DNA of 52,331 bases from IMG/VR virus record IMGVR_UViG_3300009104_002038, positions 1 to 52,331 of that record; one strand, 5' to 3'. The first letter of the stretch is position 1, and each line of letters starts with the position of its first letter. The DNA is from a virus. Lineage: Duplodnaviria; Caudoviricetes. Of the stretch, positions 1 through 42,761 are shown piece by piece. The notes beneath the pieces were generated by a model, which was given only the letters and a program-made list of their open reading frames with translations, was not told where the DNA came from and searched no databases. Made by a program: the position numbers and the translations under genes.

Positions 1-155
1 GTTTGAGTAAGCCTTCAAATTGGGTTACTCTCAAACCAAGCGCTATGACGATATGGCAGACGATGCGTTTGAGTAAGCCTTCAAATTGGGTTACTCTCAA
101 ACCGCAAAGAGTATTCATGGTTTGAGTAAGCCTTCAAATTGGGTTACTCTCAAAC
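1..155 (-). CRISPR. CRISPR array 1 (probably truncated by window edge), 3 identical 36-bp repeats
   Basis: GTTTGAGTAAGCCTTCAAATTGGGTTACTCTCAAAC at 1-36, 67-102, 120-155; spacers of 30 nt (37-66) and 17 nt (103-119). Minus orientation inferred from the promoter, the repeat decay in array 2 and G-U patterns in the scaffold. Confidence 0.93.
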
Positions 156-251
156 GGTAACCTTATTTGAAAGTTTATTATTCGTATTGACCTATGCAAG
201 CACAGGTCGCAACGCTTTTTACTTGCCCGACTCAACTTCGGGACAAGGATT
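156..251 (-). ncRNA. tracrRNA/omegaRNA-like scaffold fused to first repeat (copy A)
   Basis: 94/96 identical to 2294-2389. On minus: hairpin CUUGUCCCGA-AGUUGAG-UCGGGCAAG, hairpin GACCUGUG-CUUG-CAUAGGUC, and anti-repeat CUUUCAAAUAAGGUUAC complementary to repeat GUAACCCAAUUUGAAGG. Confidence 0.75.
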
Positions 252-268
252 AAACTGTAAAAGAACGA

Positions 269-1675
269 TTAACCAAACGCCGCTTTTTTGATATTTTGGG
301 CGGCGTTTTGGTCACGAGAATGGTGCGCTCCACATTCGGGGCAATCCCATTCGCGAATTTCTAAATTATTTGACAATTCTGTGTTCACAAAACCACAACA
401 AGAGCATTCTTGCGTGGTATAGGCAGGATCAACCGCAACGGCAACAACCCCCCTTAACTGAGATTTGTAATCTATTTGAGATTTAATCTTGTGGATTCCT
501 CCAGCTAAGGCTTTTCTGTTTATGGCTTGTTTCTGTTTATTGTAAAGTTTGGGGTCATCTTGGGTCTTTTTAACTATTTGTGAAGGTTTGTAGTCTTCAT
601 ATGCAATCCCGTCAAATTCATTCGTCACTTTGCTTGTAAAGTTATGTATTTGGTCATTATGGATACGAGTTTGGTGACGATGGAGCTTATTTAGGGCTGC
701 CTTTGTCTTTTTCCAGTTGTTGGAACCTTGGGTTTGAAGGCAAAGCTTCTGTTGGAGTTTAGTTATTTTCTTTTCTAGACGCTCATCCTTCGGAAAATTA
801 TAAGTATTATTTTGATCGTCAACAATATGGTCTTTAATGCCAAAGTCAAGCCCAGTGGTATTCTTTGGTTTTTTGGGGGCAGTAGGGATAGATTTGGAAT
901 CGAGAGTAATCGTAAGACAAAGGTAAAATTCGTCCCCATCCCTAGCAATCTTGGCGGTTTTAGGCTCACCCATCAAGGGGCGATGGATCACCACCCTTAT
1001 CTTTTCCTTGACGCCTGCAAAGTGATGGAGGGTACTGCGTTCGGGATTTGCTTCATTAATTTCTAGCTTATATTCCCCTTCATAGACTACGCCATCCTTG
1101 ACAGTATTCGAGGTCGAGATAGAGTCGCCATCGCAAATATGAGTAGGGTGAACTGGAAGACGAGCGCGCTCGGACTTTTCCCATCCAAGCCCACGCTTGG
1201 TAGTCTTGGGGGCATAGTAATTGACCTTCTTCCCCTTAGTATACCACGACGATTGAAGTTCAGGATAAATATGATTAAGTGAACGCGCAGAAATTTTATT
1301 AAGGAGGTCATACGCCCAGCATTTGCCATCTTCATTCGTGTAGCGATTATTTGGCAAAGATTTATTAATAATTCGAACGCCGCCCTCCTTAAGATTTTTT
1401 ACACGATAATATTTAAACTCTGGGAGGTTATCAAGCCCTACCCTGTGAGTTCTCCATTGTGAAATTGAGGAGTTCATCTTGGGGAAATTAGGGCCACCTT
1501 TGGCGCTTTGAAATTCTGGATAGTCTTCTATATGGGCCGCAATCCTGATCATCTCATTTTTGACCAACTGAAAAGCCTTATGCCCTTCGCACATCTGACG
1601 ATACCATTCAGTGTCCAGAATATCTTGCTTGCGACTCAATGGAAGTATCCTGAATTTCTGAGTAATAGTTTTCAT
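269..1675 (-). CDS. tnpB: TnpB/Cas12f-like RNA-guided RuvC nuclease, CRISPR-associated
   Basis: N-terminal KFRILP; RuvC-I GLDFG, RuvC-II AYED, zinc ribbon CSCCG..CPECG, RuvC-III RDQNAAQNI, all intact. ATG at 1675 preferred over TTG at 1684 because of the promoter position. Confidence 0.9.
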   Translation of the reverse strand: MKTITQKFRILPLSRKQDILDTEWYRQMCEGHKAFQLVKNEMIRIAAHIEDYPEFQSAKGGPNFPKMNSSISQWRTHRVGLDNLPEFKYYRVKNLKEGGVRIINKSLPNNRYTNEDGKCWAYDLLNKISARSLNHIYPELQSSWYTKGKKVNYYAPKTTKRGLGWEKSERARLPVHPTHICDGDSISTSNTVKDGVVYEGEYKLEINEANPERSTLHHFAGVKEKIRVVIHRPLMGEPKTAKIARDGDEFYLCLTITLDSKSIPTAPKKPKNTTGLDFGIKDHIVDDQNNTYNFPKDERLEKKITKLQQKLCLQTQGSNNWKKTKAALNKLHRHQTRIHNDQIHNFTSKVTNEFDGIAYEDYKPSQIVKKTQDDPKLYNKQKQAINRKALAGGIHKIKSQIDYKSQLRGVVAVAVDPAYTTQECSCCGFVNTELSNNLEIREWDCPECGAHHSRDQNAAQNIKKAAFG

Positions 1676-1685
1676 GATGGACAAC

Positions 1686-1714
1686 AGTATAGACTATATT
1701 TGCATATATGTAAA
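1686..1714 (-). promoter_or_regulatory. sigma70 promoter of tnpB-like gene
   Basis: TTTACA-N17-TATACT, 10 nt before ATG 1675. Confidence 0.65.
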
Positions 1715-1750
1715 GAAAAAAATAACATATTTGCGTATCTGGTACCAGGG

Positions 1751-1950
1751 GTTCCGCTGTCCTCTTAAATAAAAGGGGGGCGAAAGCTCCCGTAGTTCAA
1801 TGTTTCGCCATCCTATTAACTAAAAACTAGTCGTTTGGGGCGGGTTTCACCATCCTCTTAGTGATCCGGGGAGGGTTCCGCTGTCCTGTCCTGCAGGTAG
1901 TTCCGCAGACCTTAAAGACAAGCGCTGGATGTAATTCCGCCTCTCTTTTT
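1751..1950. repeat. six degenerate ~17-bp direct repeats (GTTYCRCYRTCCTCTTA)
   Basis: Copies start at 1751, 1802, 1844, 1875, 1900, 1934 in a non-coding gap. Confidence 0.6.
1771..1791 (-). terminator. possible intrinsic terminator
   Basis: GGGAGC-TTTC-GCCCCCC followed by TTTTATTT on minus; GAAA-loop hairpin on plus. Confidence 0.4.
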
Positions 1951-2059
1951 TAAAAGGAGTTTTTGCCTATCGATGTTATCGCAAGGCTTTTGATTCCCCC
2001 AGCGAACTTGGGAAGAATAAAAAAGTATTAATCAAAAATAATCACGGCTAGCACCTGGG

Positions 2060-2293
2060 GTTTAAGTAAACTTATAAATCGCCTGTCTCTCACCAGTTTG
2101 GATAAGCCTTCAAATTATGTTGCATCACAACCAACTGAGGTGTTTGAGTAAGCCTTCAAATTCGGTTGTTCTCATTCCCCTCACACTAACCGTTTGAGTA
2201 AGCCTTCAAATTTGGTTACTCTCAAACTTCCGGAGGCTCCCTCTCATGCTCTTCTTGGTTTGAGCAAGCCTTCAAATTGGGTTACTCTCAAAC
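2060..2293 (-). CRISPR. CRISPR array 2, same repeat, decaying leftwards
   Basis: Repeats at 2258-2293 (35/36), 2192-2227 (35/36), 2142-2177 (31/36), 2096-2131 (~26/36), 2060-2095 (~23/36); spacers of 30, 14, 10 and 0 nt. Confidence 0.88.
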
Positions 2294-2389
2294 GGCAACC
2301 TTATTTGAAAGTTTATTATTCGTATTGACCTATGCAAGCACAGATCGCAACGCTTTTTACTTGCCCGACTCAACTTCGGGACAAGGATT
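2294..2389 (-). ncRNA. tracrRNA/omegaRNA-like scaffold (copy B)
   Basis: Duplicate of 156-251; both substitutions give G-U pairs on the minus strand. Confidence 0.75.
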
Positions 2390-2417
2390 TAAAATGAGAA
2401 AGAACAAATACCACCTT

Positions 2418-2445
2418 ATTATAGCGCACCGAAGAAAAATTTCAA
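2418..2445 (-). promoter_or_regulatory. sigma70 promoter driving scaffold B and array 2
   Basis: TTGAAA-N16-TATAAT pointing into the scaffold. Confidence 0.7.
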
Positions 2446-2450
2446 CCAAA

Positions 2451-3143
2451 TCATGGGAGAAACTTTTTTTTACGGATCGCTCGCCCTGTCTTTTTTTTAC
2501 GACATTTGTCTCGCCACCTCAAGACCGCCTCGCATAACTTATAGAACTCATCTAGAGGGAGGTCGGCCTTGGCTCGATTGGCGCGAAGCGAACAAATTTC
2601 TAGATTCTCTAAGTCATTGCTGCCTCCTAGGGAGGTGGGAACTCTATGGTCTAGGCTGTAACTCGAGGCATTGTTGAGGTTTATCTTTTCGCCCGTCAAG
2701 TAGCATATGGGTTTTGGGCCTATCTTATTTACAACATCAGCCGTAGTATATGGCTCTGAGACACGAACCCTCCAATTCGTGCGTCCTGCACCTTTTTGGC
2801 GCCTCTTGAAACATTTTACTTTGCTTGAAAATTGACGCCAAGCTCCCTTGGTGCAACGCGCCTTAAAAGACCAAATCTTGCGCTCTAGAGGAGACCTCTT
2901 TTGAGTAGAGACCCTTTTCTTTTCGCTCTTTTTGTGACCGCAATGGTACGAGATCGTAGCTTTGGAGCAGCCTAGGGCAGAAGCGATTTCATTATAACTA
3001 AGCCCTTGGCGCCGAAGCTTTAGGATGTCTTCTCTGTGGCGCTTATATTTGTTTCTTTTACTTCTAATGTTTGTCATTTTTTTCCTTATGTCTAGAGTCC
3101 GGGCAAGTTGAGTCATGTATCCATTTTGACAGGGAACTTGCAA
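2451..3143 (-). CDS. HTH-HNH endonuclease
   Basis: N-terminal HTH (GLSYNEIASALGCSKATISYH); C-terminal CYLTG..SLDHRVPTSLGGSNDLENLEIC..AN HNH. True start probably downstream of 3143. Confidence 0.85.
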   Translation of the reverse strand: MQVPCQNGYMTQLARTLDIRKKMTNIRSKRNKYKRHREDILKLRRQGLSYNEIASALGCSKATISYHCGHKKSEKKRVSTQKRSPLERKIWSFKARCTKGAWRQFSSKVKCFKRRQKGAGRTNWRVRVSEPYTTADVVNKIGPKPICYLTGEKINLNNASSYSLDHRVPTSLGGSNDLENLEICSLRANRAKADLPLDEFYKLCEAVLRWRDKCRKKKTGRAIRKKKFLP

Positions 3144-20520: not shown

Positions 20521-20918
20521 TGGTGGAGGTGGCGGGAGTTGAACCCGCGTCCTGAGACCTTCAAGCATGTACGTCTACAAGTTTAGTTAATTTTTTTTAT
20601 AGTTATGATATTAACATCCAACTACTTGTTTCAATTATTTGCAGTTTGTGACACAAGTAAACTTTTGTCTGTTTTTGCAGATAGATGACCCCTTATCCTT
20701 TTTATCTGCGTCAAAAGGTAAGAGGTTAGCAGGTTAAGCTGCTAAGGCGAGCTTGCGGCCCTTGAAGCCGAAACGCTTCGCAGCGAGACGGTTCTTGAAA
20801 CCTAAAGCTCTAACACGGTTTTTGTTGCCATGTACAACTTTGCGCCTTTTTCCGAAGCCGGGCGCCTCTTCGACTTGCAGTGCAAGAATCCAACCTCAGT
20901 CGAATCCAGTACACCCCC
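20521..20918 (-). ncRNA. ssrA: tmRNA
   Basis: 5' GGGGGUGUACUGGAUUCGAC; 3' T-arm GCGGGUUCAACUCCCGC and CACCUCCACCA; G3-U alanine pair; tag ORF 20829-20734 ending LALAA*. Confidence 0.93.
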
Positions 20919-35724: not shown

Positions 35725-38139
35725 TTAATTTACTTTAAAGGAAATATCTCGATCTTTTACAAAAAATTGAAAATTGGACTGTCCTTTTTGATCTTTTTTA
35801 AAATAATAATTTACTATTTGATCCTCTATCTTGGCTTGAATGAGTCGCCTTAGGGGTCGGGCACCCATCTTTTCGTCGGCTGCTTCCGAACAAATAAATT
35901 CTCGGGCATCTTCGGAAACTTTTATGTAAATCTTTTTTTTGCGCAATTTTTTTGATAATTCTTTTATATTATAATTAAATATTGAAACAAGGTCTTTTTT
36001 TTCTAAATGATTGAATACTATTATATCGTCTAGTCGATTAACTAGTTCGGGGCTAAGGGTCTTTTTGGCCAAGTCTTTTATCTTGGATGAATTCAAATCG
36101 GAAGATTGAGAAAAACCAAGGGATCCTTTAGTGGAGATATCTGACCCAATATTACTAGTTAATATAATAATGCAGTCCTTAAAGTATGCCTTTTGCCCGC
36201 TTTTATCTTCAAGTTCGCCCTCTTCTAGAATTTGAAGCAATAATTGCTGTACCTCAGGGTGGGATTTCTCGATCTCATCAAAAAGCAAAACGCTGTGAGG
36301 CTTTTTCTTTAGGCTCTCGATAAGAATGCCGCCCTCTTCGTACCCCACGTAGCCTGGGGCGGCCCCAACGAGCTTTGATGACGAAATCTTTTCGGAATAC
36401 TCCGACATATCTAGGCGTAATAGATTTTTTTCACTACCAAAATAATGTAGCGCCAATTGTTTTGCCGTCCATGTCTTTCCCACTCCGGTGGATCCTAAAA
36501 GTAGAAATGACCCAATTGGTTTTTCGGGAGACTTTAACCCTATTTTTGCACGAAGAATACACTTATGTATTGAAGCAACTGCATCTTCCTGGTTTATTAT
36601 AAAGCGCCGAAGTCGTCGTAGTAATAAAAGGGATTTTTTATCTTTTTCGTGAATTAGATTTTCTCTTGGAATCTTTGATTTAGACGAGATGATATCGACA
36701 ATATCATCCTCGGTCACTTTTACTATGTTCTGGGAAGACCACTCATGCATTAAGCGGTCATACTCAGACATAAGGGAAATCTCCTGCTCGGGAGAAGGGT
36801 TGTCGGAGTCCATAAGCTTGTAAAGCTTAGTCTCTATCTCTACCACTGCGGGAGGGGGAGTAAGGTTTTTTATTTTTACCTTCGCACCAGCTTCATCTAA
36901 AATATCAATCGCTTTGTCTGGGAAATTTTTGCTAGGCAAGTATATATCCGCAAAAGAGATTATTTTCCGCAATAAAGGGAGTGAATATTTTACGCCGTGG
37001 AAAGACTCGTAAGATTTTTTTAGCCCCTTTAGGATTTGTAAAGTTTCCTCCGCTGAAGGCTCTTCCAGAGTTAAGACCTCAAAGCGGCGCGCTAAAGCAA
37101 TATCTTTTTCGATGCTTTTTTTGTATTCGGAAAAGGTGGTTGCTCCAATTAGTTTTAATTCACCGCGAGCCAGCGCTGGCTTTAGGATATTCGCCGCATC
37201 CATAGTTCCCTCGGCGCTCCCGGCCCCGACGAGAGTGTGTATTTCATCTATAAATAAAATTATCCGCTTGTTATCGGAGCATTCTTTCACGAGAGACTTG
37301 AGTCGAGCCTCAAACTGACCTCTATATTTAGTGCCGGCAATCATGGACGCAAGATCTACGGCATAAATATCCATTCCATTGAGAAAGGCGGGGGCGCTCC
37401 CGTTGACAATCCTTTGCGCAATACCTTCTACGACCGCAGTTTTACCAATCCCCGGATCCCCAAGTATTAAGGGGTTGTTCTTGGTCTTTCTACCTAAAAT
37501 CTCCCAAATACGAGAGCTTTCAGAATCCTTCCCTATAACGTTTGGAAGGGACCCTGAACGAGCCAAGGAGCTTAGATTTACAGCAAAAGAAGACAAGGCC
37601 TTTGGAGGGGGAGATGCAGATGAAGGCTTCTCGTAAACCATAGCGTCATCAGCAACCGTTCGACGAGAGCGAAAAAGGGAATCTTGATTTCTCAACAAAA
37701 TAATGAAAGCCTCCAGAACGCCAGAAGGACTAAGTCGATGCGAGTATAAAAATTGTGCCGCAGTCCCGTCTGGGACATTTAGTAATGCAAAAAAAATATG
37801 CTCTACTCCTATGTGAGCATGACCTAAGGTATTGGCAAACTCACAAGCTTTGCTTAGGGTGGATTTAAATGAGGAATTATACCGGCTCCCTCCGGATGGA
37901 TTATCGCCTGGCGTCTCATCAAGGGAATCCGCAATGATTACGAAATCAATAAAATCCTCTATTTGAAGCCCAAACCTATCCAAAAACTCATGAACAAAAG
38001 ACCCCCCGTGGCGCAATAACACCACCAATAAATGAGATGAAGTTACCGTAGGATGATTAAGTTCTCTGGCCCACAACTTAGATTCTAAGATAAGTTGCTG
38101 AGATTTAGGCGTAAAGTTAGGAGTAATGGACATACCCAT
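35725..38139 (-). CDS. clpC: ClpC/ClpA-family AAA+ chaperone
   Basis: Clp_N repeats, GDPGIGKT, GTKYRGQFE, GSTGVGKT, DMSEY, GYVGYEEGG, SLGF ClpP loop, MGARPLRR. Confidence 0.9.
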   Translation of the reverse strand: MGMSITPNFTPKSQQLILESKLWARELNHPTVTSSHLLVVLLRHGGSFVHEFLDRFGLQIEDFIDFVIIADSLDETPGDNPSGGSRYNSSFKSTLSKACEFANTLGHAHIGVEHIFFALLNVPDGTAAQFLYSHRLSPSGVLEAFIILLRNQDSLFRSRRTVADDAMVYEKPSSASPPPKALSSFAVNLSSLARSGSLPNVIGKDSESSRIWEILGRKTKNNPLILGDPGIGKTAVVEGIAQRIVNGSAPAFLNGMDIYAVDLASMIAGTKYRGQFEARLKSLVKECSDNKRIILFIDEIHTLVGAGSAEGTMDAANILKPALARGELKLIGATTFSEYKKSIEKDIALARRFEVLTLEEPSAEETLQILKGLKKSYESFHGVKYSLPLLRKIISFADIYLPSKNFPDKAIDILDEAGAKVKIKNLTPPPAVVEIETKLYKLMDSDNPSPEQEISLMSEYDRLMHEWSSQNIVKVTEDDIVDIISSKSKIPRENLIHEKDKKSLLLLRRLRRFIINQEDAVASIHKCILRAKIGLKSPEKPIGSFLLLGSTGVGKTWTAKQLALHYFGSEKNLLRLDMSEYSEKISSSKLVGAAPGYVGYEEGGILIESLKKKPHSVLLFDEIEKSHPEVQQLLLQILEEGELEDKSGQKAYFKDCIIILTSNIGSDISTKGSLGFSQSSDLNSSKIKDLAKKTLSPELVNRLDDIIVFNHLEKKDLVSIFNYNIKELSKKLRKKKIYIKVSEDAREFICSEAADEKMGARPLRRLIQAKIEDQIVNYYFKKDQKGQSNFQFFVKDRDISFKVN

Positions 38140-41593: not shown

Positions 41594-41757
41594 TCTATTC
41601 CAAATGTTTTTTTTAGGTCTTCAATTAGATTAACTTTTTTTCCTGATGGGAGAGCTAAGTATTCTTTTTTTAGTCTACGCAGAAGCCTTTTATGTTCCGG
41701 ATTGGAAGCATCATAATTTATTATCTTCTTAATTTTTTGTAATTGTTTTTTGTTCAC
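41590..41757 (-). CDS. small basic hypothetical protein (not in ORF track)
   Basis: GTGA and ATGA overlaps with both neighbours. Confidence 0.5.
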   Translation of the reverse strand: MNKKQLQKIKKIINYDASNPEHKRLLRRLKKEYLALPSGKKVNLIEDLKKTFGIE

Positions 41758-42761
41758 ACCTTGATATGATGGACGTGACGAAAGGCAGAAAGATCTGACC
41801 CTCCCGCATAGCTAATGGCACTCTTAAGGTCTTCCTCTATCTCTAACAACTTCATTTCAAGGGTGAGGCCGCAAGAAGGAACGTTCTTGAGGGTGCCCTC
41901 TATATGGGTTCGCGTTTTTTTATTTTCAAAACTGGCTGATCCGTAGTATGCTTTATGCATGACTCCATCGATTTCTATAGAGGCCGAAGGACTATCGGAG
42001 CAGCAAGCGAAAAGGCCCCCCGCCATTACGAGATCAGCACCCGCAACCAAGGCCTTCGCAATGTCTCCGTTGCACCTGATTCCCCCATCTGCGATAATTG
42101 GAATTCTACTTCCCGAGTTAAACTCTTCTAGGGCTTCATAACATTTGGAGCATTCTTGAACGCAACTGAACATAGGGTAGGTGAAACCCGTCTTGTCTTT
42201 AGTGGTGCAAGGACTCCCTTGGCCTATGCCCACTTTGACATAATCAGCCCCCCAGCTTCTAAGGGAGACAACCGCTGGGGGAGTGGCAACATTGCCGGCA
42301 ATAATACAAACCTCGTCCCCCAAATTTTTACGCACGAAAGCAAGCATGTCGCGCATTAAACTGCAATGTCCATGTGCAATGTCAATTGTAATGATATCCA
42401 CGCGAGCGCCAGACGCCCTAATATTTTCTACAACTTCTCGGTCTTGAGGTTTTACGCCTAGACTGACGGAAACAACGCGCCAACTTTCGCGATTGGCATT
42501 TTCAATAAAATTCTGGATATCAATGTCAAATCGATGCATGGAGTATAGATACCCGTTCTCACTTAGCCATTTGCACTGACGTTCGTCGACCACCGCCTTC
42601 ATATTAGAAGGCATGACTGGAAGCTTAAATGTCATGGCGTTGCTAGACTCAATGGCCTCCTTGTTGTCTGGAAGAATGGTTTCAGTAGAGCACATGGAGC
42701 GACTTGTACATTCGCTATAACTGGGTAGCAAGCTAACGTCGGAATATTTAAGCGCTCTCAT
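41754..42761 (-). CDS. guaC: GMP reductase
   Basis: SNM, MHRF, IDIAHGH, AGNV, KVGIGQGSPCTTK, IIADGGI, YYGSAS. Confidence 0.9.
   Translation of the reverse strand: MRALKYSDVSLLPSYSECTSRSMCSTETILPDNKEAIESSNAMTFKLPVMPSNMKAVVDERQCKWLSENGYLYSMHRFDIDIQNFIENANRESWRVVSVSLGVKPQDREVVENIRASGARVDIITIDIAHGHCSLMRDMLAFVRKNLGDEVCIIAGNVATPPAVVSLRSWGADYVKVGIGQGSPCTTKDKTGFTYPMFSCVQECSKCYEALEEFNSGSRIPIIADGGIRCNGDIAKALVAGADLVMAGGLFACCSDSPSASIEIDGVMHKAYYGSASFENKKTRTHIEGTLKNVPSCGLTLEMKLLEIEEDLKSAISYAGGSDLSAFRHVHHIKV

What the first reader, a model, noticed from the sequence alone, without database searches (positions are those of the whole stretch)
120..251. Scaffold pairs with the repeat twice: anti-repeat duplex plus an omegaRNA-like pseudoknot next to the spacer
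Seen on minus: anti-repeat CUUUCAAAU-AA-GGUUAC pairs with repeat GUAACC-CA-AUUUGAAGG. The 5' hairpin loop region UUGAGU (235-230) is complementary to ACUCAA (127-122), 2 nt before the spacer. A second hairpin is closed by a G(CUUG)C tetraloop. Both differences between copies A and B, and the T>C in repeat 2258-2293, become G-U pairs only on the minus strand. Known: TnpB omegaRNAs and Cas12f guides form a pseudoknot just 5' of the guide. Inference: an omegaRNA split into a tracr part and a repeat part, so one scaffold could also serve distal crRNAs in trans.
Basis: partly seen in the sequence, partly recalled or inferred. Interest (0 to 1): 0.85.

Follow-up and report, generated by a model that had tools for sequence, protein, structure and literature searches.

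The report
Guide-RNA scaffold of phage TnpB-like nuclease
This stretch encodes the structured RNA scaffold that a small phage-borne TnpB-like nuclease most likely uses to hold its CRISPR-style guides, and related loci confirm both proposed pairings, but the design principle is already published.

Summary
On the minus strand, directly after a 468-aa TnpB-like gene (269-1675), lie a conserved 5' motif, hairpin 1 (222-247, loop AGUUGAG), hairpin 2 with a G(CUUG)C loop (189-208), an anti-repeat (157-173) and a 36-nt repeat/spacer array (155-1).

In 28 homologous modules from marine metagenome and viral contigs, the loop-to-repeat-3'-end pseudoknot is kept through four sequence variants. 96.8% of cells are paired, 3 of 5 pairs show compensatory changes, and slid controls reach at most 62%.

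The window holds three such modules. Two flank the gene. A third, with a different pseudoknot sequence, lies between module B and the gene.

The repeat's own 5' end also covaries with its 3' end, so each repeat carries a rival partner for the pseudoknot strand. Trans service of distal repeats is inferred, not shown: anti-repeat complementarity to distal repeats exceeds shuffles in only 5 of 14 modules.

The concept is already in print: a pseudoknot next to the guide, and an omegaRNA split into tracrRNA and crRNA, as in TnpB, Cas12f, Cas12p and TranC. I read this as a new lineage and architectural variant of a known kind.

The parts
1..155 (-). Array A. It has 36-nt repeats at 120-155, 67-102 and 1-36, and spacers at 103-119 (17 nt) and 37-66 (30 nt). 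It runs off the contig end.
   Evidence: 5 repeat matches in the window; 0.00 expected
122..127 (-). 3' strand of the pseudoknot, (A)CUCAA. It is followed by AC and then the guide.
157..173 (-). Anti-repeat. It pairs with repeat positions 147-131 in cis, closing the 9-nt loop 148-156. It matches the distal repeats equally well.
   Evidence: duplex with the distal repeat -17.0 kcal/mol, z -4.6
183..214 (-). Hairpin 2. The inner stem is 189-208 with the G(CUUG)C loop, and a 3-bp outer stem joins 212-214 to 183-185.
   Evidence: Homologues keep the inner stem with CUUG, UUCG or UUUA loops (my reading).
222..247 (-). Hairpin 1. Its loop AGUUGAG (231-237) carries the 5' strand of the pseudoknot.
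250..266 (-). Conserved 5' motif GUUCUUUUACAGUUUAA, probably the 5' end of the scaffold RNA. It starts 2 nt after the stop codon.
269..1675 (-). Gene for a 468-aa TnpB-like RuvC/zinc-ribbon nuclease (P0002; P0001 is the same ORF read from the upstream TTG).
1686..1714 (-). Promoter-like site TTTACA-17-TATACT in front of the gene.
   Evidence: consensus match only
1751..1933 (-). Mini-array of module C. Five units of 25-51 nt each end in GCGGAAC, GUGAAAC or GCGAAAC. Only about 13 nt of repeat is conserved.
   Evidence: family D4; one 42-nt unit is missing in run X10
1934..2036 (-). Module C scaffold. Hairpin 1 lies at 1994-2017 with loop AGUUCGC. Hairpin 2 and a short terminal hairpin follow, then GCGGAAU and a guide. 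The 5' motif is degenerate.
2060..2293 (-). Array B. The repeats at 2258-2293 and 2192-2227 are intact. Three more (2142-2178, 2096-2132, 2060-2096) decay towards the gene.
2294..2405 (-). Module B scaffold, a copy of module A. It differs at three G-U-compatible places in the scaffold plus repeat, and at four more in the 5' motif.
2418..2445 (-). Promoter-like site TTGAAA-16-TATAAT (11 of 12), ending 13 nt upstream of GUUCUUU of module B.
   Evidence: consensus match only

Best explanation
Window 120-266 (minus strand) is the scaffold of the guide RNA of the adjacent 468-aa TnpB-like nuclease. It is an omegaRNA-like or tracrRNA-like RNA of about 110 nt, joined directly to a CRISPR-style array.

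The RNA is transcribed on the gene strand. Module B probably has its own promoter. Module A is probably made by read-through of the gene.

It folds into hairpin 1, hairpin 2 and a long anti-repeat:repeat stem. The five bases upstream of the last two repeat bases then pair with the loop of hairpin 1. This forms the pseudoknot beside the guide that TnpB and Cas12 proteins grip.

Scaffold plus first repeat plus first spacer is thus a natural single guide.

Shown here: the sequence anatomy, conservation, covariation of hairpin 1 and the pseudoknot, a nuclease fold with an intact catalytic triad, and spacer turnover between samples.

Inferred: expression, processing, DNA cleavage, and the use of freed scaffold copies in trans by the distal repeats.
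For: **Protein**
- Family hits are NF040570 guided_TnpB at 157 bits (cut-off 100), plus PF07282 and PF01385.
- The best solved relative by sequence is ISDra2 TnpB, E 1.7e-23.
- The AlphaFold model has pLDDT 84.8. Its best Foldseek match is ISDra2 TnpB 8h1j, E 2.2e-16, TM 0.72 on the target.
- D277, E360 and D455 are invariant in 20 family members. They align with the GxDxGIKD, E and RD motifs of ISDra2 TnpB.

**RNA**
- Every family locus that holds DNA beyond the gene has the same order: stop codon, GTTCTTT motif, hairpin 1, UAAAA, hairpin 2, anti-repeat, array.
- On 28 modules (alignment A3), hairpin 1 is 98.2% paired with 3 of 8 pairs changed on both sides. The pseudoknot is 96.8% paired with 3 of 5 pairs changed on both sides.
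- For the two helices scored together, 0 of 500 shuffles reach the observed pairing or covariation score. Sliding the partner drops pairing to 34-62%.
- Four pseudoknot variants occur: UUGAG/CUCAA, UUUAG/CUAAA, UUUGC/GCAAA and UUCGC/GCGAA.
- Of 34 distinct full-length repeats, 33 pair 5 of 5 with their own module's loop. Only 17 of 102 comparisons with other variants do so.
- In locus L099 and in the window, modules with different loops sit side by side, each matching its own repeats.
- In 12 of the 28 modules the first repeat is truncated and has no 5' end. These still complement the loop, in six of them through the wobble variants GCGGA or GUGAA.
- RNAalifold independently predicts hairpin 1, with 5 of 9 pairs compensatory.

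**Strand**
- All three hairpin-1 motifs of the window are on the minus strand, against 0.02 expected.
- A U-G pair in hairpin 1 occurs in 21 of 28 modules.
- The three A/B differences are G-U only on the minus strand.
- Promoter-like sites are on the minus strand.

**Array dynamics**
- Contigs of another marine run carry a different 30-nt spacer after repeat 2258-2293 and lack one 42-nt unit of array C.

**Published parallels**
- ISDra2 omegaRNA: the pseudoknot joins -5 to -3 with -103 to -105, in a guide-pseudoknot-stem layout (passages of PMC10097598).
- Cas12p: tracrRNAs of Cas12 enzymes form the pseudoknot with the repeat's 3' end (passages of bioRxiv 10.1101/2025.01.20.633832).
Against: - No transcript evidence exists.
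- Single-sequence folding does not favour the minus strand: z is -2.99 on minus and -3.46 on plus.
- The repeat 3' end has a second covarying partner, the repeat's own 5' end. It is 91.6% paired, with 3 of 7 pairs changed on both sides. Covariation alone therefore cannot say which helix forms in the loaded complex for full-length repeats.
- Anti-repeat complementarity to distal repeats exceeds shuffles (p <= 0.004) in only 5 of 14 modules: winA, winB, L100up, L102up and L113. In the other 9, p is 0.068-0.948.
- A cruder own-versus-other energy matrix put the module's own repeat first in only 3 of 10 rows. One distal-repeat coordinate was wrong in that run, and hairpin 2 was included.
- The repeats were pre-selected by a regular expression that required one of four 7-nt endings, so decayed repeats were dropped.
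- Many of the 28 modules are close relatives. There are about 10-12 distinct lineages, so cell counts overstate the number of independent events. I count a minimum of 4 compensatory double changes.
- Rfam has no match.
Confidence: 0.8

Rival explanations
1. Self-contained repeats. For distal units, the repeat's own 5' end (GUUUGAG) pairs with its 3' end (CUCAAAC) and supplies the guide-adjacent helix, as in tracrRNA-free palindromic-repeat Cas12 guides. The scaffold would then serve only the first, fused guide. This is compatible with the best explanation for the first unit.
For: The terminal helix of 34 distinct repeats is 91.6% paired, with 3 of 7 pairs changed on both sides and 0 of 500 shuffles as high. 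Anti-repeat complementarity to distal repeats is not above shuffles in 9 of 14 modules. Several repeats also carry an internal palindrome (my reading).
Against: In the window the anti-repeat matches the distal repeats over 15 bp (z -4.6 and -4.3), which self-contained crRNAs would not need. The terminal helix has more mismatches than the pseudoknot: in four rows each, columns 5-32 and 7-30 are unpaired, and in 11 rows columns 1-36 are unpaired. By my geometric reasoning, the terminal helix and the 15-bp anti-repeat stem cannot form together in cis, because only 3-4 nt link them.
Confidence: 0.25
2. The complementarity of the repeat ends is a DNA-level feature, such as inverted repeat ends used for spacer integration or unit recombination. 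The loop resembles the repeat 5' end only because both must complement the same 3' end. The RNA pseudoknot with the loop remains the functional helix.
For: Arrays gain and lose units and spacers between samples. Units are shared or deleted between the window and L098. That GTTT...AAAC-type inverted ends are common in CRISPR repeats is my recollection, not a result of any call.
Against: No Cas1 was found in the one related viral record that could be searched (0 of 1, 96.7 kb, 69% complete). No Cas-like hit appeared among the 29 other window ORFs scanned against Pfam or PHROGs. That is not the whole window, and Cas2-sized ORFs were not scanned.
Confidence: 0.3
3. The element is not a guide scaffold. 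It would be a CRISPR leader, terminator or attenuator, or the decayed end of an IS200/IS605 element, and the pairings would be coincidental.
For: No RNA data exist. No Rfam family matches.
Against: The loop covaries with the repeats of its own module across four variants. The element recurs both upstream and downstream of the gene in loci with 35-94% protein identity. No intrinsic-terminator-like site was found in 1-2600. The spacers differ between units and between samples.
Confidence: 0.03
4. The functional transcript is the plus strand.
For: The plus strand folds as well as the minus strand in isolation (z -3.46). The repeat ends read alike on both strands.
Against: On the plus strand the spacer would precede the repeat, which is the wrong order for TnpB/Cas12 guides. 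The U-G pair in hairpin 1 (21 of 28 modules) and the three A/B differences would become A-C mismatches. The promoter-like sites and the gene are on the minus strand.
Confidence: 0.02

Closest known systems
ISDra2 TnpB with its omegaRNA (IS200/IS605 OMEGA system; PDB 8h1j, 8exa, 8bf8)
   Same: It is the closest protein by sequence (E 1.7e-23) and by fold. The RNA layout is guide, pseudoknot, stem: the pseudoknot strand lies a few nt upstream of the guide and pairs with the far 5' part of the scaffold. The terminal stem acts as a built-in repeat:anti-repeat (PMC10097598 passages).
   Different: The protein is 468 aa against 408 aa, and identity is confined to the C-terminal half. The scaffold starts after the stop codon and does not overlap the gene. 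It is followed by an array of repeats and variable spacers, not one guide at a transposon end. There are two or three scaffolds per gene. No transposase or transposon ends were seen nearby.
TranC, transposon-CRISPR intermediates (Jin et al., Cell 2025; LaTranC, PDB 9jfo/9jfq)
   Same: A TnpB-lineage nuclease stands next to a CRISPR array. The guide RNA is understood as an omegaRNA divided into a tracr-like and a crRNA-like part. There is no adaptation module nearby. Some members are phage-borne. My sources are one passage of the review PMC13565253 and passages of bioRxiv 10.64898/2026.03.27.714800. The Cell paper itself is not held.
   Different: Sequence similarity to LaTranC is limited to the zinc-ribbon (TNB) domain (E 1.7e-10, residues 394-466). 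LaTranC ranks 11th by fold. I could not check whether this family is one of the published TranC clades. I found no description of the fused scaffold-array cassettes on both sides of the gene in the passages I read.
Cas12f (type V-F) and Cas12p ('Cas12 hacker') sgRNAs
   Same: These are miniature TnpB-derived nucleases. Their tracrRNA pairs with the repeat twice: a long repeat:anti-repeat stem, and a short pseudoknot with the repeat's 3' end.
   Different: There is no family-level sequence match. NCBIfam Cas12f2 scores 51.5 bits against a cut-off of 450, and Cas12p is not found by phmmer at E <= 1. The Cas12p pseudoknot is AAAC:GUUU at -1 to -4 with the tracrRNA 5' end. Here it lies at -3 to -7 with a hairpin loop, and its sequence varies between modules.

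Membership tests
TnpB superfamily (RNA-guided RuvC nuclease) | RuvC fold with zinc-ribbon (TNB) insertion, detectable by family models | tested here: met
   NF040570 scores 157 bits against a cut-off of 100. PF07282 scores 75 bits and PF01385 43.5 bits. The top Foldseek match is 8h1j.
TnpB superfamily (RNA-guided RuvC nuclease) | Catalytic D-E-D triad | tested here: met
   D277, E360 and D455 are invariant in 20 sequences. They align with the ISDra2 motifs. That these are the catalytic residues of ISDra2 is recalled, not tested.
IS200/IS605 TnpB-omegaRNA element | A single omegaRNA that overlaps the gene's 3' end, with one guide set by the transposon's right end | tested here: not met
   The scaffold begins 2 nt after the stop codon and is followed by three or more repeats with different spacers. 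Further modules lie upstream of the gene.
IS200/IS605 TnpB-omegaRNA element | Association with TnpA and transposon ends | tested here: inconclusive
   No transposase hit appeared among the 29 other window ORFs scanned. The neighbouring ORF is an HNH endonuclease. Small ORFs and transposon-end hairpins were not examined.
IS200/IS605 TnpB-omegaRNA element | Pseudoknot between the bases just upstream of the guide and the 5' part of the scaffold | tested here: met
   Covariation.
TranC (transposon-CRISPR intermediate) | TnpB-lineage protein encoded next to a CRISPR array | tested here: met
TranC (transposon-CRISPR intermediate) | Guide made of a tracr-like RNA that pairs with the crRNA repeat | tested here: inconclusive
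   Complementarity and the pseudoknot are present, but the scaffold is fused to repeat 1. Trans pairing is supported by energy in only 5 of 14 modules. No RNA data exist.
TranC (transposon-CRISPR intermediate) | Membership of a published TranC clade | not tested
   The Cell 2025 paper is not held and supplements are closed. The only TranC sequence at hand, LaTranC, matches the zinc ribbon only.
TranC (transposon-CRISPR intermediate) | DNA cleavage directed by both CRISPR RNA and a single-molecule reRNA | not testable with these tools
   This needs a biochemical or interference assay.
Cas12f (type V-F) | Family-level sequence match | tested here: not met
   NF049972 Cas12f2 scores 51.5 bits against a cut-off of 450. 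PDB Cas12f chains match only the zinc ribbon, at E 1e-6 or weaker.
Cas12p (type V-P) | Sequence relation, and an AAAC:GUUU pseudoknot at -1 to -4 | tested here: not met
   No phmmer hit at E <= 1. The pseudoknot here is in a different register and its sequence varies.
CRISPR array | Three or more near-identical repeats separated by unrelated spacers that vary between populations | tested here: met
CRISPR array | Adaptation genes (cas1, cas2) in the locus | tested here: inconclusive
   No Cas1 was found in the L158 record (0 of 1 searched; 4 other loci were not held). The window ORFs were only partly scanned.

The most novel reading that the evidence does not exclude
One nuclease may be served by several self-addressed guide cassettes. 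Each scaffold-array module would carry a private pseudoknot 'address', for example UUGAG/CUCAA beside UUCGC/GCGRA in this window and UUCGC beside UUUAG in L099. With its own anti-repeat, this would keep crRNAs paired to their own scaffold.

Each repeat also keeps a second copy of the pseudoknot strand at its 5' end. The family would then show both proposed routes from omegaRNA to CRISPR guides in one locus: splitting into tracrRNA plus crRNA, and condensation into palindromic, self-sufficient repeats. The repeat 5' end could act either as a lock on the guide-adjacent strand or as a tracrRNA-free alternative.

The mini-arrays, whose repeats are reduced to about 13 nt (window 1751-1933, L105, L158), would be crRNAs held to the scaffold almost only by the pseudoknot.
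Probability: 0.2. Interest if true: 0.75.

Novelty: new variant of a known kind. Interest (0 to 1): 0.55.

Why it matters
The locus gives natural, phylogenetically replicated evidence for the pseudoknot-plus-anti-repeat design of TnpB-derived guide RNAs. The evidence comes from a lineage that sits close to TnpB itself and is carried by marine phage-like contigs.

Nature has already made four compensatory versions of the pseudoknot, and has placed different versions side by side for one protein. This predicts that the protein reads the helix by shape, not by sequence. It also predicts that orthogonal scaffold/crRNA pairs could be built for one compact (468-aa) nuclease.

The repeat's second, competing partner for the pseudoknot strand bears on a question discussed in the TnpB structure paper (PMC10097598): whether tracrRNA-dependent and tracrRNA-free Cas12 guides arose by separate routes. 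This locus makes that question testable.

The underlying principle is published, so the value is a new lineage and architecture, not a new mechanism.

Tried and rejected
- **RNA evidence.** No RNA holder was listed among 23 runs (two earlier tries were unanswered). Only DNA contigs could be laid.
- **Rfam.** There was no match in 1-3000 at E <= 1. Only a tmRNA matched in the whole window.
- **Spacer targets.** The two 30-nt spacers gave only chance-level hits in 50,697 phage records (best E 0.6 and 8), and none in the 217 loci then held.
- **Shared guide.** The guide TACATCCAGCGCTTGTC occurs in the window at 1917-1933, in L098 and in L099. It had 21 exact hits in viral contigs. That number could be chance for 16 specified bases, and I could not compute the expectation. 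The flanks are inconsistent, and some hits fall in what reads as a coding motif. No target or TAM is claimed.
- **Cross-lineage duplex energies.** The module's own repeat was best in only 3 of 10 rows. The test was flawed: one repeat coordinate was wrong, hairpin 2 was included, and the short anti-repeats were cut. I set it aside.
- **Degenerate hairpin-1 pattern in viral contigs.** It gave 8 stretches. Only 1 is a family member, and that one lies on the L158 contig already held. The other 7 look like chance.
- **A helix between the 5' motif and the UAAAA tract.** I considered this by eye. It is all A-U with no covariation, so I dropped it.
- **Tools and papers not available.**
  - No whole genome is held for the window.
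  - The TranC paper is not held, and supplements are closed. Clade membership of this family, and any prior listing of it, remain unchecked.
- **Paper searches for prior description**. They found no account of this family or of flanking scaffold-array cassettes. The searches cover only the held library.

Full report
**What is at the site**

Read on the minus strand, the left end of the window is a compact locus.

| Element | Coordinates | Notes |
|---|---|---|
| Promoter-like site | 2445-2418 | TTGAAA-16-TATAAT |
| Scaffold B | 2405-2294 | copy of scaffold A |
| Array B | 2293-2060 | two intact repeats, three decaying |
| Scaffold C | about 2036-1934 | different pseudoknot sequence |
| Mini-array C | 1933-1751 | very short repeats |
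| Promoter-like site | 1714-1686 | in front of the gene |
| Gene | 1675-269 | 468 aa |
| Scaffold A | 266-156 | starts 2 nt after the stop codon |
| Array A | 155-1 | three identical 36-nt repeats; spacers of 17 and 30 nt; cut by the contig end |

The finding (120-251) is scaffold A plus its first repeat.

**Check of the observation**

- The anti-repeat C173-C157 pairs with G147-G131 of the repeat as 6 + 9 bp. The minimum-free-energy fold finds this stem.
- Hairpin 1 is 247-222, with the loop AGUUGAG at 237-231.
- UUGAG (235-231, plus U230) is complementary to (A127) CUCAA (126-122). This site lies 2 nt before the spacer.
- Hairpin 2 (208-189) is closed by G(CUUG)C.
- Copies A and B differ at three places within the scaffold plus repeat. 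All three are transitions that keep G-U on the minus strand.

On the single sequence this is not compelling. The plus strand folds as well (z -3.46) as the minus strand (z -2.99), and a 5-nt complement is weak by itself.

**The neighbouring gene**

- The 468-aa product matches NCBIfam guided_TnpB at 157 bits (cut-off 100), and Pfam PF07282 and PF01385.
- Its best solved relative by sequence is ISDra2 TnpB (E 1.7e-23 over residues 263-469). LaTranC and the Cas12f chains match only the zinc ribbon.
- An AlphaFold model built on 20 relatives (pLDDT 84.8) is closest to ISDra2 TnpB (8h1j, E 2.2e-16). Next come ISFba1 TnpB, Cas12f, Cas12p and LaTranC.
- D277, E360 and D455 are invariant in the family.

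**Relatives**

- Among 5.8 billion proteins, there are 20 clusters besides the window's own at 33-69% identity. All come from metagenomes and none carries an informative name. The other 67 hits are ordinary TnpBs that match the C-terminal half at 27-33% identity.
- One scan of species genomes gave only such distant TnpBs.
- Metagenome and viral-contig scans gave 22 and 2 family loci.

**The scaffold is conserved and it covaries**

Every family locus that holds DNA beyond the gene shows the same order. After the stop codon come the GTTCTTT motif, hairpin 1 with a 7-nt loop, UAAAA, hairpin 2, the anti-repeat and an array.

I aligned 28 modules. I scored hairpin 1 and the pseudoknot together.

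| Measure | Hairpin 1 | Pseudoknot |
|---|---|---|
| Cells paired | 98.2% | 96.8% |
| Pairs changed on both sides | 3 of 8 | 3 of 5 |

- For the two helices scored together, 0 of 500 shuffles reach the observed pairing or covariation score.
- Sliding the partner by 1-3 columns gives 34-62% pairing for the whole structure.
- Four versions of the pseudoknot occur: UUGAG/CUCAA (the window lineage), UUUAG/CUAAA, UUUGC/GCAAA and UUCGC/GCGAA.
- Of 34 distinct full-length repeats, 33 pair 5 of 5 with the loop of their own module. Only 17 of 102 pairings with foreign loop versions do so. Those repeats were pre-selected by their endings.
- RNAalifold on 12 scaffolds predicts hairpin 1 on its own, with 5 of 9 pairs compensatory.
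- The 28 modules represent about a dozen lineages. I count at least four independent double changes.

*First, the modules come in several copies.*

- The window has three hairpin-1 motifs, all on the minus strand, against 0.02 expected.
- Seven loci hold two or three modules: the window, L097, L099, L100, L102, L104 and L158. In 13 loci a module lies upstream of the gene.
- In the window (A and B against C) and in L099 (upstream against downstream), the modules carry different pseudoknot versions. Each version matches its own repeats.

*Second, the repeat's own 5' end (GUUUGAG) is also complementary to the pseudoknot strand, and it covaries with it.*

- This terminal helix is 91.6% paired, with 3 of 7 pairs changed on both sides.
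- The loop and the repeat 5' end are therefore near-copies of each other and compete for the same partner.
- One observation argues that the loop pairing is selected for its own sake. In 12 of 28 modules the first repeat is truncated and lacks the 5' end. These still complement the loop, in six of them through the wobble-compatible variants GCGGA and GUGAA.

**Strand and expression**

No RNA run holds the sequence, so expression is inferred. The evidence for the strand is:

- the gene's orientation;
- the repeat-then-spacer order required by TnpB/Cas12 guides;
- the U-G pair in hairpin 1, present in 21 of 28 modules;
- the G-U-only differences between copies A and B;
- the promoter-like sites. 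A TTGCAT-17-TATAAT site also lies just upstream of GTTCTTT in the L104 group (my reading).

**Is it used in trans?**

- In the window the anti-repeat matches the distal repeats as well as the fused one (-17.0 kcal/mol, z -4.6; module B z -4.3).
- Across the family only 5 of 14 modules beat shuffles.
- Trans service is plausible for this window. It is not a demonstrated family trait.

**Array behaviour**

Contigs of four marine runs were laid on 1-2500. One of them carries a different 30-nt spacer after repeat 2258-2293, a different spacer in place of 37-66, and lacks one 42-nt unit of array C. The arrays therefore turn over between populations.

No protospacer was found.

**Context**

- All 41 ORFs of 130 aa or more but one lie on the minus strand.
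- Hits include DNA polymerase, a DnaB-like helicase, a primase, a RecA-like protein, a sigma factor, an HNH endonuclease, a methyltransferase and a tail-fibre chaperone domain.
- Two relatives sit in IMG/VR viral contigs.
- I read the contig as a fragment of a phage genome.
- No Cas1 was found in the one related record that could be searched.

**Comparison with what is known**

- The ISDra2 omegaRNA has the same guide-pseudoknot-stem layout. Its authors proposed that tracrRNA/crRNA pairs arose by splitting such an RNA, and that tracrRNA-free guides arose by condensing it into palindromic repeats (passages read).
- The Cas12p preprint states that Cas12 tracrRNAs characteristically form the pseudoknot with the repeat's 3' end.
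- TranC systems are TnpB lineages with arrays and a split guide. I know them only through citing texts, because the paper itself is not held.

The following I did not find in the texts I could read:

- this protein lineage;
- the fusion of the scaffold to the array;
- cassettes on both sides of the gene, with private pseudoknot sequences;
- the three-way covariation.

The TranC supplement may already list the family.

**Verdict**

I class it as a new variant of a known kind, of moderate interest.

Noticed in passing
window 20521-20918 (-): A full-length tmRNA gene lies inside the phage-like contig. ARAGORN gives a tag peptide ending in ALAA, and Rfam RF00023 scores 153 bits.
   Followed up: partly
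window 1751-2036 (-); also L098:2501-2900, L105:992-1300, L158:2685-2990: A third type of module occurs upstream of the gene. Its array has repeats reduced to about 13 nt (AGGAYRGYGRAAC) and units of 25-51 nt. Some spacers are too short to guide. It may be decaying, or it may be a minimal crRNA form.
   Followed up: partly
window 1917-1933 (-), L098:2605-2621, L099:2563-2579: The same 17-nt guide (16 of 17 identical in L099) is kept in loci whose nucleases are only 51% identical. No target was identified.
   Followed up: partly
window 276-309 (-): A 9-bp inverted repeat (AAACGCCGC ... GCGGCGTTT) lies inside the last 12 codons of the nuclease gene, just upstream of scaffold A. It could be a processing or pausing hairpin, or merely a consequence of the coding sequence.
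   Followed up: no
window 2451-3143 (-): An HNH endonuclease gene (phrog_6050, E 1.2e-23) ends 6 nt before the promoter-like site of module B.
   Followed up: no
window 35725-38139 (-) and 41754-42761 (-): The phage-like contig also carries an 804-aa ATP-dependent protease homologue (phrog_4871, E 1e-214) and a GMP reductase/IMPDH-family gene (PF00478, E 1.6e-54).
   Followed up: no
L099:4350-4478, L101:1620-1748, L097:1992-2088, L158:4379-4475: In these relatives the first unit after the scaffold is a compact hairpin with a truncated repeat. It looks like a true single-molecule omegaRNA, and it is followed by full-length repeats.
   Followed up: partly
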